NCBI GenBank assembly: GCA_903935335.1
Contig: CAIZRG010000049.1
Span: 51,759 to 115,758, forward strand
Length of the DNA stretch: 64,000 nucleotides
Source: Oligoflexia bacterium
GTDB lineage: Bacteria > Bdellovibrionota > UBA1018
Direction of reading: 5' to 3'
Made by a program: the position numbers and the translations under genes. The notes below the pieces were generated by a model, which saw only the letters and a program-made list of their open reading frames with translations, searched no databases and was not told the origin of the DNA. Below, in pieces: positions 59,368 through 63,096 of the stretch (within the stretch, counting starts at the first letter, position 1; each line of letters opens with the position of its first letter).

Positions 59368-60714
59368 TTACACAGTCGGGAAAAGCTCTAATACTGCTTG
59401 AGTCACCTTTGGGTCAAAAGCGTGAGGAGCAATGCCTGATACAGAATCTTGATAAATACTATGAATTGCTTCGAGTGGCGTAAGACGCTTTCTCCCAGGA
59501 ACAACTCGCGTCAGATAATCAAAACAATCTGCAATTCCAACAATCTGAGACTCAATGATAATTTTCTGACTTTGAAGCTTTTTAGGATACCCGCTTCCAC
59601 TCGGTCTTTCATGATGTTGGGCAACTGCATTTTTAACGATTTCAGGAATAATCATTTTCCTATAAATAATGTAATCCAATCCAGCCTGAACATGAGAATG
59701 TAAAATATTTTTCTGATCTTGTGTGAGTTGATCTTCTCTAAGTCCCTGAATTTCTTTTGAAACTTTAACCATCCCTACATCATGAAGAAGACCTGCCATT
59801 GAACAGGTTTCAGGATCCCCAAGTTTTGTCCCCAATGAAAATAAAGTCGCAAAAGTAGAAACATTTGACGAATGTGTGTAAGCATCACTCATATCATCTA
59901 ACGCTATTTTAATTCGGCTATAAAATTCCCCTGACTTAGAAAAACTCATGAAGGTTTCTACAATTTTTCGGCACTCAACAAGAACCGTCTTTCCTTCACT
60001 AAAAGTTCCTACTTTGCTATGATTACCAATTAAACCACTTAAAAGTATCCGGACTGATTCCTTAAGTTTTTCAGCCCTCTCTGTTGTGCTTAGTCCATCC
60101 TGGGAAAGATTTTTTAAAAGCCTGGAAGAAGTATAATCTCGAAAAAGCTGAATTTGATCTAAAGTGACATGAAGAGAGTTAAAGTTTTCAAATTGAAGTT
60201 TTTTTAGTCTATCTGAAGAAAAAATCTCTCCTGCCCTTAAGAACAAAACATGTTTATTATTAGCCGGTAAAAATACCCAAAGATCAAAAGAAAGTTGAAC
60301 TCCAGCACACAAATCAATCAACTTAACCGACCTAAAAGCTCTCAAAGACTTAATAGAAGTTAAAGCAGATTCTATTGCAGATTGAATCAAACTAAAATCT
60401 AATGTTAAAATAAAAACGTCATTAAACCCATTTTTTTTAAAACTTACTCGATCAAAATTATGCGATTTTTCAATCAAAAAATAAACTGGAGTTTCTTGAA
60501 AAATTCCTCGGAAAAACTGTGCAGCTTCTTCAGAAGAAATCAAGATCCCTGCAGGCCCACATAAAATAAGACAAGGAGGAAAAGTAGGTGGATTTTCTAA
60601 TAAACTATCTAAGTCTTCAACCTTGAAAATAGTGGTATCTTCGCGCTGAACAAACGGCTGAATAAAATTTATCGTGCTTTCTTCAAGACCGTATATAAAA
60701 ACACTACGATTCAT
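59368..60714 (-). CDS. HD-GYP domain c-di-GMP phosphodiesterase with N-terminal degenerate receiver-like domain
   Basis: LLHDVGMVKV (HD) ... HHERPSGSGYP (HHExxDGxGYP). The N-terminal about 120 aa are REC-like but lack the acidic pocket. Confidence 0.7.
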   Translation of the reverse strand: MNRSVFIYGLEESTINFIQPFVQREDTTIFKVEDLDSLLENPPTFPPCLILCGPAGILISSEEAAQFFRGIFQETPVYFLIEKSHNFDRVSFKKNGFNDVFILTLDFSLIQSAIESALTSIKSLRAFRSVKLIDLCAGVQLSFDLWVFLPANNKHVLFLRAGEIFSSDRLKKLQFENFNSLHVTLDQIQLFRDYTSSRLLKNLSQDGLSTTERAEKLKESVRILLSGLIGNHSKVGTFSEGKTVLVECRKIVETFMSFSKSGEFYSRIKIALDDMSDAYTHSSNVSTFATLFSLGTKLGDPETCSMAGLLHDVGMVKVSKEIQGLREDQLTQDQKNILHSHVQAGLDYIIYRKMIIPEIVKNAVAQHHERPSGSGYPKKLQSQKIIIESQIVGIADCFDYLTRVVPGRKRLTPLEAIHSIYQDSVSGIAPHAFDPKVTQAVLELFPTV

Positions 60715-60768
60715 GCATCATTCCATTCTAAAATGTTGCTTACTATCTTAATTTTTCATTCCAAAATT

Positions 60769-61602
60769 TTAATTTTCCCCACTTTTGAGACTAATTTCGA
60801 GAAAAAAATCTCCTTTTTCAAGCTTAAAAGGGATAATAACAGATTTTTGCTGAACTTCAGAAAACAGTCTCATTTTTTCTCCATAAATCACTGAAGGAAT
60901 TGATTTTTCAATTTGAAATCCTTCTATTTCATTAAGCTCTGCTTTTGCAATTCCAAAAATCATGTTTAAGATCTCAGCGGCAGCATCGACCATTTCCTCA
61001 CTAAAAGTTTCAGCTGGTTCTCCAAACATACCCGAATAAACACTTAAAAAAGCAGAGGAGGAAAAGCATAATGCTATTGTTCCACAAAATGCTTTACTCA
61101 CTAAACTTAAGATTCCTACTACGTGCATATCTAAAACCGTAGTAACACTTTTCTGATAGGGTTTTCCAAGAACAGGCTTAAGATTGCACTGCATTTGAAG
61201 CACTTTTTCAGTCGCTTTAACAAATGGATCAACAAAAATAGCATAAATTTCTGCTTTATTTTGGCCCATTCCTGCAAATACTCTTGCTTCATGAATATTT
61301 TTACTCAAATTAACTTCTGATCCTTTGAGCGCAGCTTTTAAAAGAACTTCAATATTATTTGAAGCATTAATAATAGAGAAAAAACAGTTCTTTTTTATAA
61401 TTGCTGAATTTAGTAAAATAATTGAATTATAAATTTTTTCATTAATTGTAACAACTTCTTTGAAATCAAGCACGGTTAACATCTTAGGTTTTTCAATCAG
61501 ACCTAGTGCAATCTGCCTGAGATCTTCAGCATTCTTGGGGGCGACCACACTAGGACATTGAATAGAGAGATAATCTCCATTGTCTTTTACAAGCACGGCC
61601 AC
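60769..61602 (-). CDS. STAS (anti-sigma-factor-antagonist-like) domain fused to CheX-like domain
   Basis: N-terminal about 110 aa: LSIQCPSVVAPKNAEDLRQIALGLIEKPKMLTVLDFKEVVTINEKIYNSII is a SpoIIAA/STAS-like pattern. C-terminus VDPFVKATEKVLQMQCN...VGILSLVSKAFCGTIALCF...AAAEILNMIFGIAKAEL is CheX-like. Confidence 0.5.
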   Translation of the reverse strand: MAVLVKDNGDYLSIQCPSVVAPKNAEDLRQIALGLIEKPKMLTVLDFKEVVTINEKIYNSIILLNSAIIKKNCFFSIINASNNIEVLLKAALKGSEVNLSKNIHEARVFAGMGQNKAEIYAIFVDPFVKATEKVLQMQCNLKPVLGKPYQKSVTTVLDMHVVGILSLVSKAFCGTIALCFSSSAFLSVYSGMFGEPAETFSEEMVDAAAEILNMIFGIAKAELNEIEGFQIEKSIPSVIYGEKMRLFSEVQQKSVIIPFKLEKGDFFLEISLKSGEN

Positions 61603-61695
61603 AGACTCCTTGACAAAAGGTAATTAAAAAGCTCTAGCAGTTTTAATTTTATCAATTTAATTTTAAAATACAACTTTTAGTATAAAATAGTTTTA

Positions 61696-63096
61696 ATGTC
61701 CAATCAAGATCAAACACCTATCCCTCTTATTGTTGATCCTGATGAAGTTTTTCTTGATTCACTCATTAAAACGAACACTCAAGGCCCTCCCCCATTGATT
61801 GCTTCTTCTGGAAAAGCAGCTCAACTCGCAATAGCTGACCTCAGCCAAAAAATCTCAGGGGTTTTAATCAATCCTGCAATATCTAATCCTAGCGGGATAT
61901 CCGTTATTCGCTCGACTCATCTACACAGACCTTCTATACCCGTTTTTTTAATTTATGACAACAAATTGCCTTTTAATGACAAAGAGTTAAGAAGATTAGG
62001 AGTGAAAAAAAGCATTCAAAAACCGATTTCTATTCAAACAATATATGAGATTGTACAACCTAAAGTCAGTTTATTTGATCCAAAAAAAATCCTCCAATTA
62101 GATAGCCTAAAACCTCTTCACCCTTTGGATACTGAAATTGAAGCAAATGAGTCCAACTTTGTTTCTATCCAAGCCCAAGAGTTTGTCGCTGGAAGTGTTT
62201 CTTATTTTGATTTATATATTAAACTAGGTACTAATAAATTTATAAAACTCCTCCAAGCTGGGGACCCTTTTCATAAAGATCGCCTTCAATCTTACCTGGA
62301 CCGCGGAGTCAAAAATTTTTACCTAAGAAAAGAAGCTCAAATTCATTACCTAAACTATTGCGATCGTTTAGCCTCCGCAATGCTCAAATCTAAACCTAAA
62401 TCGACTCATTTTACAGTGAAGCAAATTTTAAATCATGGAAAGGAAACATTTGATTTTTTTAAAACCCAAGGCATTAGCGAAAGTAACCTCGCTTTTGCTC
62501 AGCGATTTATTACAAATGTGACTGCTTTAGTAGATCAACTCAAACCGGGAGAACACCCTCTCTTAAAGGGCTTTCTTCAAAACGCTGCTGCTTGTGAACA
62601 TGGTGTTGGAGTCACTTTGATTGCATCCCTTTTAATTCCTTCTCTTGGAATCATCTCGGTTAATCCAATTTCTACAGTTGGAATCGCTGCTTTATTTCAT
62701 GACGTTGGTCTTCAGGTCTTAGAAATAGACCATGAGGATGAATCAAAAATGACAGAAAAAGAAAAAGAAAAATTCCGTTCGCATACCATCATTGGAGAGC
62801 AAATTTTATCAAAAGTAAAAGGGATTAACCCCACGGTACTTCAAGCCGTTATTCAACATCATGAACGAAGAAATAAAAAAGGGTTCCCTTTTCGGTGTGG
62901 CCCTGGAACACTCAGTATGATAGCAGAGCTTATTGGGGTCAGTGACGAGTTTATGAGACTTGTGAGTCGAATCATAAAAAAAGAGAAGTTTAATCTGAAC
63001 TTAGAGATTAGAAATCGTATTATTGACTGTTTCTCTCCTAATATTGTGAATGAATTCAGGAAAGTTTTTCTTTTTTCTGAAACTCAAAAAAAATAA
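61696..63096 (+). CDS. Pseudo-receiver plus degenerate HD-GYP domain protein
   Basis: N-terminus PLIVDPDEVF...ISGVLINPAIS has Asn in place of the phospho-acceptor Asp. ALFHDVGL (HD) ... HHERRNKKGFPF, where GYP is replaced by GFP and the Gly/Asp are missing. Confidence 0.6.
   Translation: MSNQDQTPIPLIVDPDEVFLDSLIKTNTQGPPPLIASSGKAAQLAIADLSQKISGVLINPAISNPSGISVIRSTHLHRPSIPVFLIYDNKLPFNDKELRRLGVKKSIQKPISIQTIYEIVQPKVSLFDPKKILQLDSLKPLHPLDTEIEANESNFVSIQAQEFVAGSVSYFDLYIKLGTNKFIKLLQAGDPFHKDRLQSYLDRGVKNFYLRKEAQIHYLNYCDRLASAMLKSKPKSTHFTVKQILNHGKETFDFFKTQGISESNLAFAQRFITNVTALVDQLKPGEHPLLKGFLQNAAACEHGVGVTLIASLLIPSLGIISVNPISTVGIAALFHDVGLQVLEIDHEDESKMTEKEKEKFRSHTIIGEQILSKVKGINPTVLQAVIQHHERRNKKGFPFRCGPGTLSMIAELIGVSDEFMRLVSRIIKKEKFNLNLEIRNRIIDCFSPNIVNEFRKVFLFSETQKK

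What the first reader, a model, noticed from the sequence alone, without database searches (positions are those of the whole stretch)
59368..63096. Two divergently transcribed pseudo-receiver HD-GYP proteins; one has a degenerate GFP motif
Both proteins start with REC-like domains lacking the phospho-acceptor Asp. Asn is visible at the expected position in the second. Both end in HD-GYP-type domains.

The first keeps HHE...GSGYP and is likely an active phosphodiesterase. The second reads HHERRNKKGFPF and is likely catalytically impaired, perhaps a c-di-GMP sensor or regulator.

An active plus degenerate pair flanking a CheX-family gene suggests a regulated c-di-GMP sink controlled by CheY-like protein-protein interaction rather than phosphorylation.
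Basis: partly seen in the sequence, partly recalled or inferred. Interest (0 to 1): 0.55.

Follow-up and report, generated by a model that had tools for sequence, protein, structure and literature searches.

The report
Pseudo-receiver HD-GYP pair in chemosensory cluster
Two related signalling enzymes of a predatory-type bacterium carry a "dead" phosphorylation domain and sit next to CheY and CheX chemotaxis genes, which suggests that a chemotaxis-like pathway controls breakdown of a nucleotide second messenger through protein docking; this is a new variant of a known theme, not a new kind of system.

Summary
A (59368-60714, -) and C (61696-63096, +) are real, paralogous genes of an uncultured Bdellovibrionota bacterium. 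Each has an N-terminal receiver fold without the acceptor Asp (G53 in A, N59 in C) and a C-terminal HD-GYP domain. The motifs read exactly as reported.

In PmGH the Y285A mutant stays active. GFP is also a common natural variant, 67 of 145 relatives.

C is still non-canonical. K225, D308, KPG and RxxK are replaced, as in the inactive Bd1817. That is the opposite of proven c-di-GMP-receptor HD-GYPs, so the "c-di-GMP sensor" reading is not supported. A also lacks K225, KPG and RxxK.

The new point is synteny. A-type genes lie next to a canonical CheY in 7 of 8 loci and a CheX protein in 6 of 8. C is the first gene of a cheA operon.

The best model is inferred: CheY~P docks on the pseudo-receiver to switch the hydrolase, and CheX resets the signal. 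This is a new variant of a known kind, of moderate interest.

The parts
58041..58952 (+). D: receiver-CheX fusion (303 aa). The receiver is canonical and the CheX part keeps the D..E..N active-site motif.
   Evidence: Pfam Response_reg 1.5e-14 and CheX 1.6e-15. D12/D13/D57/S87/K109 present. 41% identical over its full length to the REC-CheX gene that precedes CheY and an A-type gene in L169.
58974..59366 (+). E: canonical single-domain CheY (130 aa), the proposed phospho-partner of A.
   Evidence: Pfam Response_reg 4.8e-26; NCBIfam CheY 1.4e-38 (131.9 bits, below that model's 189-bit cut-off). All five conserved receiver residues present. 53-55% identical to the CheY genes directly upstream of A-type genes in L084, L085, L086 and L169, against about 33% for the other CheY of the cluster.
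60349..60714 (-). A, residues 1-122: aspartate-less pseudo-receiver. G9/L10 replace the acidic pair, G53 replaces D57, E82 replaces T87 and L103 replaces K109.
   Evidence: The model has (beta-alpha)5 topology. Foldseek matches receiver domains at TM about 0.7-0.77. hhalign to a receiver profile gives probability 86.5%, E 4.6e-6. Gly at the acceptor column in 111/145 relatives. The conserved patch E63/A65/Q66/R69 and K94-N95-G96-F97...F101..P104.D106 lies on alpha3 and alpha4-beta5.
59899..60348 (-). A, residues 123-272: Bd1817-type N-terminal beta domain plus helical linker.
   Evidence: phmmer alignment to 3tm8 starts at A residue 129 and Bd1817 chain residue 25. Foldseek hits Bd1817 at E 4e-11. 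The Pfam DUF3391 model gives no hit.
59368..59898 (-). A, residues 273-448 plus stop codon: HD-GYP domain with the complete HHERPSGSGYP motif.
   Evidence: Pfam HD_5 1.6e-20. Ligands H281, H311, D312, H341, H367, H368, D396 and D399 (= D308) are present. K225 is M315, and there is no KPG or RxxK.
60769..61602 (-). B: CheX-domain protein (277 aa) with an uncharacterised 115-aa N-terminal extension. It lies upstream of A on the same strand.
   Evidence: Pfam CheX 1.4e-16 over residues 162-260. The D-x3-E-x2-N motif is kept (DAAAEILN). The N-terminus has no Pfam or PDB sequence match. CheX-domain genes accompany A-type genes in 6 of 8 loci.
61603..61695 (.). 93-bp spacer between the divergent B-A and C-cheA transcription units. 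It is the presumed promoter region.
   Evidence: Gene coordinates. The consensus promoter scan is not above chance, so this role is an inference.
61696..62070 (+). C, residues 1-125: pseudo-receiver with Asn at the acceptor position (N59, codon 61870-61872). D14, D16 and K109-P110 are retained, and Y87 replaces T87.
   Evidence: Model topology. Foldseek matches receiver domains at TM 0.7-0.78. hhalign probability 97.9%, E 6e-13, with N59 on the D57 column. 9 of 32 family members hit Pfam Response_reg, best 4e-9. Acceptor column in the family: N25, S5, K1, G1.
62071..62589 (+). C, residues 126-298: Bd1817-type N-terminal domain plus helical linker. This region holds many of the family's invariant and near-invariant residues.
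   Evidence: phmmer alignment to 3tm8 over C 152-420. Foldseek hits Bd1817 at E 6e-9, TM 0.68. F171, K184, F192 and Y200 are invariant, and many positions are near-invariant.
62590..63096 (+). C, residues 299-466 plus stop codon: HD-GYP-type domain with the family signature HHERRNKKGFP.
   Evidence: Pfam HD 1.3e-9 and HD_5 5.5e-9. The seven ligands are conserved. K225 is L (28/32), KPG is EDE, D281-G282 is N-K, Y285 is F (28/32), D308 is variable and RxxK is absent.
63154..64000 (+). 5' part of cheA, a hybrid Hpt-dimerisation-HATPase-CheW-receiver gene of 1009 aa that runs off the window. It is followed by cheW, cheY and cheR, then by divergent cheB and a globin-coupled MCP.
   Evidence: Gene calls and Pfam families on the 432-kb source contig, locus L001. 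The coordinate conversion is window = 70715 - L001 position.

Best explanation
The finding lies inside a chemosensory (Che-type) gene cluster of an uncultured Bdellovibrionota bacterium. A and C are paralogous three-domain proteins. Each has an aspartate-less pseudo-receiver, a Bd1817-type N-terminal domain with a helical linker, and an HD-GYP metal-dependent phosphohydrolase domain.

Shown:
- Neither protein has an acceptor Asp.
- Both keep the seven core metal ligands.
- A-type genes are habitually linked to a canonical CheY and to CheX-domain phosphatases.
- C opens a C-cheA-cheW-cheY-cheR operon.
- The other five receivers of the cluster are canonical.

Inferred mechanism, a 'split response regulator':
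1. The hybrid CheA, fed by a globin-coupled chemoreceptor, phosphorylates the stand-alone CheY (E).
2. CheY~P docks on the conserved alpha4-beta5-alpha5 face of the pseudo-receiver of A, as a receiver:pseudo-receiver heterodimer. This switches the HD-GYP hydrolase through the Bd1817-type linker.
3. The CheX proteins B and D dephosphorylate CheY~P and reset the output.

A is probably a working cyclic-dinucleotide phosphodiesterase. Its substrate is uncertain because the c-di-GMP base-contact residues are missing.

C belongs to a separate, tightly conserved family (HHERRNKKGFP). It keeps a dimetal site but has replaced the catalytic-support and c-di-GMP-contact residues. It is most likely a Bd1817-like non-canonical HD-GYP. 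That could mean a hydrolase for another substrate or a metal-dependent regulatory subunit of the same pathway. It does not look like a decayed c-di-GMP receptor.
For: Domain architecture.

Acceptor Asp absent, family-wide.

Metal ligands conserved: C family 32/32 for six ligands and 29/32 for the seventh. A family 9/9 for six ligands and 8/9 for the seventh. Larger A-type set 118-142 of 145 per ligand.

Synteny of A-type genes (window, L083-L086, L167-L169): a single-domain receiver is adjacent in 7/8 loci and a CheX-domain protein in 6/8. In L167 the gene next to the receiver has histidine-kinase-like sequence by eye; no family search was run on it..

Orthology: E is 53-55% identical to the CheY genes next to A-type genes in four loci (L084, L085, L086, L169) and 30-43% identical to the adjacent receivers in L167 and L168. 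D is 41% identical to the REC-CheX gene of L169.

The same CheX-CheY-HD-GYP triad also occurs with C-type genes in L024 and L047.

The CheX active-site motif is kept in all six aligned CheX domains. The five other receivers of the cluster are canonical.

The conserved surface of the pseudo-receiver maps to alpha3 and alpha4-beta5. By established knowledge this is the usual receiver interaction face.

Heterodimers between a pseudo-receiver and a receiver are discussed as a possible mechanism, with WhiI/BldM as a precedent (PMC12632262). C is the first gene of the che operon.
Against: - No binding or activity data exist. The docking step is pure inference from gene order and surface conservation.
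- Most C-type loci (about 30 of 46) have no receiver or CheX gene in the flanks fetched, so the Che link is not general for the C family.
- Both proteins lack K225, whose Ala mutant is inactive in PmGH (PMC4159591). Both resemble Bd1817, which was inactive and did not bind c-di-GMP in vitro (PMC3188283), so either may not be a phosphodiesterase at all.
- No diguanylate cyclase (GGDEF) motif is encoded in the 64-kb window.
- Only 8 A-type loci could be inspected, although the family has at least 145 clusters.
Confidence: 0.45

Rival explanations
1. A is an active c-di-GMP phosphodiesterase. C is a catalytically dead derivative that works as a c-di-GMP sensor or as an allosteric regulator of A. 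The pair would be an active/degenerate pair like HnoB/HnoD.
For: C has GFP instead of GYP and N-K instead of D-G in the signature loop, and it lacks K225 and D308. Among A-type relatives, GFP members keep all seven ligands less often than GYP members, 41/67 against 61/74. Degenerate HD-GYP regulators are known, for example HnoD and ECA3548 (bioRxiv 10.1101/2021.11.05.467447). A and C are adjacent paralogues.
Against: All seven metal ligands of C are under strict conservation. The c-di-GMP contact residues (KPG, RxxK) are missing, which is the opposite of proven receptor-type HD-GYPs (DvhD, PMC13090378). PmGH Y285A remains active (PMC4159591). The A + C pairing is not conserved in other genomes. 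A lacks K225, KPG and RxxK as well.
Confidence: 0.15
2. Both are ordinary, constitutively regulated phosphodiesterases. The pseudo-receiver is only a dimerisation or stability module. The neighbouring che genes merely share transcriptional control.
For: Many pseudo-receivers have no known partner (PMC12632262). HD-GYP enzymes work as dimers, and the appended Bd1817-type domain does not block activity in PA4108 (bioRxiv 10.1101/2021.11.05.467447). Most C-type loci lack che neighbours.
Against: The tight, often overlapping CheX-CheY-A gene order recurs in distinct genomes at 34-40% protein identity. The CheY next to A forms its own orthologous group. The conserved surface patch on the pseudo-receiver suggests a specific partner.
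Confidence: 0.2
3. Information flows the other way. The HD-GYP proteins sense a nucleotide or the metal/redox state. Through the pseudo-receiver they sequester or modulate CheY, CheX or CheA, and so tune chemotaxis.
For: Cross-talk from c-di-GMP effectors to CheX is documented in Vibrio cholerae (PlzC-CheX, PMC12799141). C precedes cheA in one operon. The strictly conserved dimetal site of C, without substrate contacts, would fit a sensor role. The cluster's chemoreceptor is a globin-coupled (gas-sensing) MCP.
Against: There is no evidence of nucleotide binding, and Bd1817 bound no c-di-GMP (PMC3188283). A keeps a complete catalytic-type motif.
Confidence: 0.12
4. The substrate is not c-di-GMP but another nucleotide, such as 3',3'-cGAMP, a linear dinucleotide or something else. 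The pathway would then control a different second messenger.
For: The guanine-reading RxxK motif is absent or variable in both families. Changes in this motif shift HD-GYP specificity to cGAMP in PmxA and in Bdellovibrio Bd2325, which shares the Bd1817-type architecture (bioRxiv 10.1101/600031; PMC10482364). Bdellovibrio makes cGAMP (PMC9140294).
Against: A and C lack even the Arg of the Rxx(Q/N) signature described for cGAMP enzymes. There are no assays.
Confidence: 0.2

Closest known systems
RpfG family response regulators (REC-HD-GYP)
   Same: A receiver fold at the N-terminus and an HD-GYP domain at the C-terminus. Both are linked to a phosphorelay.
   Different: The acceptor Asp is absent (G53, N59), so there is no direct phosphorylation. 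An extra Bd1817-type domain is inserted between the two domains. K225, KPG and RxxK are missing.
Bd1817 / Bd2325 family of Bdellovibrio (N-terminal domain + linker + HD-GYP; PDB 3tm8)
   Same: Best sequence and fold match over both the N-terminal domain and the HD-GYP domain. Same phylum. The position equivalent to K225 is not Lys. C, like Bd1817, has a non-consensus GYP loop.
   Different: A and C carry an additional N-terminal pseudo-receiver. C keeps HH where Bd1817 has HE. A keeps the GYP Tyr. Bd2325 is an active cGAMP/c-di-GMP enzyme, whereas Bd1817 was inactive in vitro.
HnoB/HnoD of Shewanella (an active EAL enzyme plus a degenerate REC-HD-GYP regulator)
   Same: The concept of an active and a non-canonical phosphodiesterase-type protein in one signalling module.
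   Different: HnoD has lost its metal ligands (HD to SE, HHE to QLE) and has a phosphorylatable receiver. C keeps all its ligands and cannot be phosphorylated. The A + C pairing is not conserved.
DvhD of Desulfovibrio (HD-GYP domain acting as a c-di-GMP receptor; PDB 9rbz)
   Same: An HD-GYP fold used in a non-standard way. It is a structural match for A.
   Different: DvhD lost its metal ligands (HD to SQ, HH to MN) but binds c-di-GMP. C shows the reverse pattern.
Wsp system of Pseudomonas (chemosensory pathway with a hybrid CheA that controls c-di-GMP through WspR, a REC-GGDEF protein)
   Same: A Che-type pathway with a hybrid CheA-receiver kinase and a cyclic-dinucleotide enzyme encoded in the cluster.
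   Different: The output here is a hydrolase-type protein, not a cyclase. The output protein itself cannot be phosphorylated. Stand-alone CheY and CheX phosphatases are part of the module.
Aspartate-less / pseudo-receiver domains (ALR; for example RitR with Asn at the acceptor site, and the WhiI-BldM heterodimer)
   Same: A receiver fold without a functional phosphorylation site. Regulation is presumed to be through protein contacts.
   Different: No pseudo-receiver paper among those retrieved here mentions HD-GYP outputs (PMC12632262: 0 occurrences). The conserved pairing with CheY and CheX is specific to this case.

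Membership tests
HD-GYP domain (class II c-di-GMP phosphodiesterase) | Seven core metal ligands (PmGH H189, H221, D222, H250, H276, H277, D305) | tested here: met
   A: H281, H311, D312, H341, H367, H368, D396. C: H302, H335, D336, H363, H388, H389, D417. Mapping from HMMER alignments to 4mcw and 3tm8. Family conservation.
HD-GYP domain (class II c-di-GMP phosphodiesterase) | Signature loop HHExx(D/N)GxGYP | tested here: inconclusive
   A: HHERPSGSGYP, met, with S at the D/N position. 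C: HHERRNKKGFP, with G282 replaced by K and Y285 by F. 0 of 98 generic HD-GYP homologues have F at this position, but 67 of 145 A-type relatives do.
HD-GYP domain (class II c-di-GMP phosphodiesterase) | Catalytic-support residues K225 (HDxGK) and D308 | tested here: not met
   K225 is M315 in A (family mostly L) and L339 in C (28/32 L). D308 is present in A (D399) but is M420 in C and variable in its family. Among generic homologues this position is K in 83, M in 14 and N in 1 of 98.
HD-GYP domain (class II c-di-GMP phosphodiesterase) | c-di-GMP contact motifs KPG and Rxx(K/R) | tested here: not met
   A has R-E-D and V405..R408. C has E-D-E and I426..K429. Neither motif is conserved in either family.
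HD-GYP domain (class II c-di-GMP phosphodiesterase) | Hydrolysis of c-di-GMP | not testable with these tools
   Needs an enzyme assay with Fe2+ or Mn2+.
Response-regulator receiver (RpfG-type REC-HD-GYP) | Receiver fold | tested here: met
   Pfam Response_reg hits 9 of 32 C-family members.
Response-regulator receiver (RpfG-type REC-HD-GYP) | Phospho-acceptor Asp with the acidic pair, Thr/Ser and Lys | tested here: not met
   A: G9/L10, G53, E82, L103. C: D14/P15(D16), N59, Y87, K109. Both are therefore pseudo-receivers, not response regulators.
Bd1817 family (DUF3391-HD-GYP) | N-terminal beta domain plus helical linker preceding HD-GYP | tested here: met
   phmmer to 3tm8 across the N-terminal domain and HD-GYP (E 3.7e-9 for A, 2.4e-8 for C). 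Foldseek E 4e-11 and 6e-9.
Bd1817 family (DUF3391-HD-GYP) | Match to the Pfam DUF3391 (PF11871) model | tested here: not met
   No hit at E <= 0.1 in A, C or the 32 C-family members. Bd1817 itself is reported to be far from that consensus (bioRxiv 10.1101/2021.11.05.467447).
Degenerate HD-GYP c-di-GMP receptors (DvhD / HnoD type) | Loss of metal ligands with retained nucleotide contacts | tested here: not met
   C shows the reverse pattern: ligands kept, contacts lost (compared with PMC13090378).
CheX/CheC-type CheY-P phosphatase (genes B and D) | CheX domain with the D/S-x3-E-x2-N active-site motif | tested here: met
   Pfam CheX 1.4e-16 for B and 1.6e-15 for D. Motifs DAAAEILN and DAAGELCN in the alignment. 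Phosphatase activity was not tested.

The most novel reading that the evidence does not exclude
A previously undescribed output class for chemosensory pathways, widespread in Bdellovibrionota with at least 145 sequence clusters. It would be a 'split response regulator': a dedicated CheY~P docks on the aspartate-less pseudo-receiver of an HD-GYP hydrolase to switch cyclic-dinucleotide turnover, and dedicated CheX phosphatases act as the reset. A sister family (HHERRNKKGFP) would have turned the HD-GYP dimetal site to a new substrate or to metal/redox sensing. If true, this gives a concrete, testable answer to how at least one class of pseudo-receivers is switched.
Probability: 0.3. Interest if true: 0.65.

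Novelty: new variant of a known kind. Interest (0 to 1): 0.45.

Why it matters
How pseudo-receiver domains are switched on and off is described as an open question (PMC12632262). Here a pseudo-receiver is fused to a measurable enzyme, and a candidate phospho-partner (CheY) and a reset enzyme (CheX) are encoded next to it. That makes a simple biochemical test possible.

The finding would also add a hydrolase-type output to the few known chemosensory pathways that control cyclic dinucleotides (Wsp, Chp), in a phylum of predatory bacteria where c-di-GMP and cGAMP steer predation and motility.

The C family is a clean natural example of an HD-GYP domain that keeps its metal centre while discarding the c-di-GMP contacts. 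This bears on what Bd1817-like 'inactive' HD-GYP proteins actually do.

If the proteins turn out to be ordinary phosphodiesterases, the finding is routine signalling-gene diversity.

Tried and rejected
- Pfam and NCBIfam on A and C gave no receiver or DUF3391 call. The receiver fold had to be shown by structure prediction and profile-profile alignment.
- The metagenome-contig scan with the A alignment used a generic QHHERxDGxG pattern and returned only ordinary HD-GYP domains, so it was of no use for synteny.
- The word-indexed profile search with the A alignment found no new members. The exhaustive HMMER search did, but those proteins cannot be looked up for genomic context.
- The afdb50 fold library was unavailable, so cultured-organism homologues with names could not be listed.
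- The promoter and terminator scan of 58.9-63.3 kb was not above the shuffled expectation.
- The 115-aa N-terminus of B has no PDB sequence match at E <= 10. It and four longer CheX homologues have no Pfam domain other than CheX. A STAS-like fold is only an impression from the sequence and is not claimed.
- A shifted-register Asp in the receiver-like domains was considered and rejected for the window proteins, because the beta3-alpha3 loops contain no acidic residue.
- A PilZ-type motif in the Bd1817-type domain was looked for by eye and not found.
- A conserved A + C gene pair was considered and rejected. It is not seen in the other seven A-type loci, and in the 46 C-type loci only tandem C-C duplicates (L007, L011, L045) and a weaker HD-GYP-like hit (L040, L043) occur.

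Full report
**What is there.** The ORF list confirms A = 59368-60714 (-), 448 aa, and C = 61696-63096 (+), 466 aa. B = 60769-61602 (-), 277 aa, lies between them and upstream of A on the same strand. Pfam finds HD_5/HD domains at the C-terminus of A (1.6e-20) and C (5.5e-9 / 1.3e-9), and a CheX domain in B (1.4e-16). Translating the exact stretches gives HHERPSGSGYP in A and HHERRNKKGFPF in C. A and C are paralogues, 26% identical over about 300 residues with E 1e-15. The window is part of a 432-kb metagenomic contig. Homologues are annotated as Bdellovibrio, Bdellovibrionales, Bacteriovoracaceae or Oligoflexia MAGs, so the organism is an uncultured member of Bdellovibrionota.

**The receiver-like domains.** Pfam and NCBIfam call no receiver in either N-terminus, so this part of the observation needed testing.
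- AlphaFold models built on family alignments (mean pLDDT 84.7 for C and 82.8 for A) show a (beta-alpha)5 domain at residues about 9-120 of C and 4-120 of A.
- Foldseek against the PDB matches these domains to many solved receivers (Spo0F, PhoP, MtrA, CheY) at TM 0.7-0.78 and rmsd 2.5-3.5 A.
- A profile-profile alignment to a receiver profile built from the cluster's own receivers and RpfG-type homologues gives probability 97.9%, E 6e-13 for C and 86.5%, E 4.6e-6 for A.
- In that alignment N59 of C and G53 of A fall on the CheY D57 column. C keeps D14 (=D12), K109 and P110 and has Y87 for T87. A has G9/L10, E82 and L103 at the other conserved positions.
- Nine of 32 C-family members hit Pfam Response_reg directly.
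- The substitutions are family traits. The acceptor column is N in 25 of 32 C-type proteins and G in 111 of 145 A-type proteins.
- By contrast, the five other receivers of the cluster (E, D, CheY2, CheB, CheA C-terminus) are fully canonical.

phmmer against PDB sequences aligns both proteins with Bd1817 of Bdellovibrio bacteriovorus (3tm8). The alignment covers the HD-GYP domain and also the Bd1817 N-terminal beta domain and helical linker (A 129-401, C 152-420). Foldseek ranks Bd1817 first (E 4e-11 and 6e-9). The architecture is therefore pseudo-receiver, then Bd1817-type domain and linker, then HD-GYP. The Pfam DUF3391 model does not hit. Galperin and Chou note that Bd1817 itself is far from that consensus, and that almost all DUF3391 proteins have the plain two-domain form (bioRxiv 10.1101/2021.11.05.467447).

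**Scoring the active site.** PmGH has eight metal ligands: E185, H189, H221, D222, H250, H276, H277 and D305. Seven are shared by all HD-GYPs. Alanine mutants of the ligands, and of D183, K225 and D308, impair or abolish activity. G284A, Y285A, P286A, R314A and K317A do not substantially reduce it (PMC4159591). I used the HMMER alignments to 4mcw and 3tm8 to map columns.
- C has all seven shared ligands: H302, H335, D336, H363, H388 and H389 are invariant in 32 family members, and D417 is present in 29 of 32.
- The Tyr-to-Phe change is a family signature in C (28 of 32). In the larger A-type family the position is Y in 74 and F in 67 of 145. No generic HD-GYP among 98 has F there.
- GFP members keep all seven ligands somewhat less often than GYP members (41/67 against 61/74), so there is a mild association with relaxation. 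Most GFP members are still intact.
- C is nevertheless clearly non-canonical. K225 is L (28/32), KPG is EDE, D281-G282 is N-K, D308 is a variable hydrophobic residue, and there is no RxxK.
- A keeps GYP and D308 but also lacks K225 (M in A, mostly L in its family), KPG and RxxK.
- Bd1817 shows the same pattern, with His in place of the consensus Lys. [quoted passage not shown] Its relative Bd2325 is an Mn-dependent cGAMP/c-di-GMP enzyme (bioRxiv 10.1101/600031).
- Proven receptor-type HD-GYPs have the opposite signature. DvhD lost HD (to SQ) and HH (to MN) yet binds c-di-GMP (PMC13090378). HnoD has HD as SE and HHE as QLE.
- C is therefore not convincingly a c-di-GMP sensor. A strictly conserved dimetal site argues for a metal-dependent function, whether on another substrate or as a sensor.

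**Genomic context.** On the source contig, C is followed after 57 bp by a hybrid cheA (Hpt, dimerisation, HATPase, CheW and receiver domains; 1009 aa). cheW, cheY and cheR come next. cheB and a globin-coupled MCP are transcribed the other way. On the other side of A lie E, a canonical CheY that converges on A with 1 bp between the two genes, and D, a receiver-CheX fusion.

I looked up eight A-type loci:

| Locus | Gene order |
|---|---|
| L084, L085 | CheX, CheY, A-type |
| L086 | the same triad at the end of a cheW-mcp-cheR-cheD/cheB operon |
| L169 | REC-CheX, CheY, A-type |
| L083 | CheX, A-type |
| L167 | histidine-kinase-like gene (judged from its sequence), receiver, A-type |
| L168 | receiver, A-type, receiver |
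| window | D (REC-CheX), E (CheY), then A inverted, with B (CheX) upstream of A |

A receiver is adjacent in 7 of 8 loci and a CheX protein in 6 of 8. E is 53-55% identical to the A-linked CheY genes of four loci (L084, L085, L086, L169) and 30-43% identical to the adjacent receivers of L167 and L168; the cluster's other CheY is about 33% identical to them. D is 41% identical over its full length to the L169 fusion. The window thus carries the same D-E-A module as L169, with A inverted and a second CheX gene (B) upstream of it. All six aligned CheX domains keep the E..N phosphatase motif.

For the C family, 46 genome loci were recovered, all in Bdellovibrionota-type MAGs or isolates. About 16 have some receiver protein nearby, about 5 have an immediately adjacent single-domain receiver, and 2 have the full CheX-CheY-C triad (L024, L047). 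Most have no che neighbours. A second HD-GYP gene next to a C-type gene is either a tandem C copy (L007, L011, L045) or, in L040 and L043, a weaker HD-GYP-like hit. None accompanies the other A-type genes. The 'active plus degenerate pair' is therefore a local juxtaposition of two modules, not a conserved unit.

**Family size.** The word-indexed search found only 9 A-type clusters. The exhaustive HMMER search found at least 150 representatives at 50% identity matching the profile at E <= 1e-102, most of them over nearly its full length, and 1169 at E <= 1e-30. The architecture is common in environmental Bdellovibrionota-like genomes. I found no paper describing it.

**How it most likely works.**
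- Shown: two HD-GYP proteins that cannot be phosphorylated but retain their metal sites, embedded among five phosphorylatable receivers, a CheA kinase and two CheX phosphatases; and a conserved CheX-CheY-HD-GYP gene order.
- Inferred: the receiver function has been split off. CheA phosphorylates the stand-alone CheY (E). CheY~P binds the pseudo-receiver of A and switches the hydrolase through the Bd1817-type linker. CheX resets the signal.
- Support for docking is indirect. The conserved positions of the A-type pseudo-receiver cluster on alpha3 (E63, A65, Q66, R69) and on alpha4-beta5 (K94-N95-G96-F97, F101, P104, D106). By established knowledge this is the usual receiver interaction face.
- Phosphorylation-dependent heterodimers between a receiver and a pseudo-receiver are a discussed possibility, with WhiI/BldM as a precedent (PMC12632262).
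- The hybrid CheA-receiver kinase resembles the kinases of non-flagellar chemosensory systems such as Wsp. This comparison is from my own knowledge; the review PMC8846402 states that the chemosensory systems known to modulate c-di-GMP belong to the ACF and TFP classes.
- The substrate of A is uncertain because the guanine-contact residues are missing. C may act on another substrate or serve as a regulatory or sensing subunit.
- I put this model at about 0.45.

**Verdict.** The proteins fail the membership test for response regulators (no acceptor Asp). They meet only part of the test for canonical c-di-GMP-specific HD-GYP enzymes. They are best filed as a pseudo-receiver-bearing branch of the Bd1817-type HD-GYP proteins. 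This is a new variant of a known kind. It is of moderate interest mainly because it offers a tractable test of how a pseudo-receiver is controlled and a possible new chemosensory output.

Noticed in passing
window 56796-58001 (+): A 401-aa protein with a signal-peptide-like N-terminus, beta-solenoid repeats (NCBIfam YdcK_fam 6.8e-18; weak bactofilin and hexapeptide hits) and a C-terminal RING finger (Pfam zf-RING_5 8.7e-8, above its cut-off). RING fingers are unusual in bacteria. The gene sits directly upstream of the REC-CheX gene D.
   Followed up: no
window 53657-54073 (+) and 52146-53642 (+): A 138-aa PilZ-domain protein (Pfam 2.8e-6), a possible c-di-GMP receptor, lies about 4 kb from the cluster, next to a 498-aa GYF_2-domain protein. 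No GGDEF motif occurs anywhere in the 64-kb window.
   Followed up: partly
A-type family, proteins P0158-P0303: The Tyr of the GYP motif is dimorphic across the family (Y 74, F 67 of 145). GFP members keep all seven metal ligands less often (41/67 against 61/74) and keep D308 less often (44/67 against 66/74). This may reflect two functional subtypes.
   Followed up: partly
window 61258-61602 (-), N-terminal 115 aa of B; also L086 4724-5590, L024 2619-4395, L047 2668-3528: Several CheX proteins linked to these HD-GYP genes carry a conserved-length N-terminal extension of about 115-150 aa with no Pfam or PDB sequence match. In D and in L169 the same position is occupied by a canonical receiver.
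   Followed up: partly
L007 2157-4936 and L011 10001-12810: C-family genes occur as tandem duplicates, and several genomes carry two or three copies on different contigs (for example JBDSKY: L018, L020, L024). This indicates lineage-specific expansion.
   Followed up: no
window 59366-59368: CheY gene E (+) and HD-GYP gene A (-) converge with a single base between their stop codons, and no terminator-like hairpin lies between them.
   Followed up: no
window 54600-56800 (tRNA-Arg at 55818-55895): A lower-GC stretch (0.34) with only short ORFs of unknown function surrounds a tRNA-Arg gene, just upstream of the RING-finger gene. It might be an insertion hot spot.
   Followed up: no
L001 1-1743 (beyond the window end): The chemoreceptor of the cluster is a globin-coupled MCP (Pfam Globin + MCPsignal), so the pathway input is probably O2 or another gas.
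   Followed up: no
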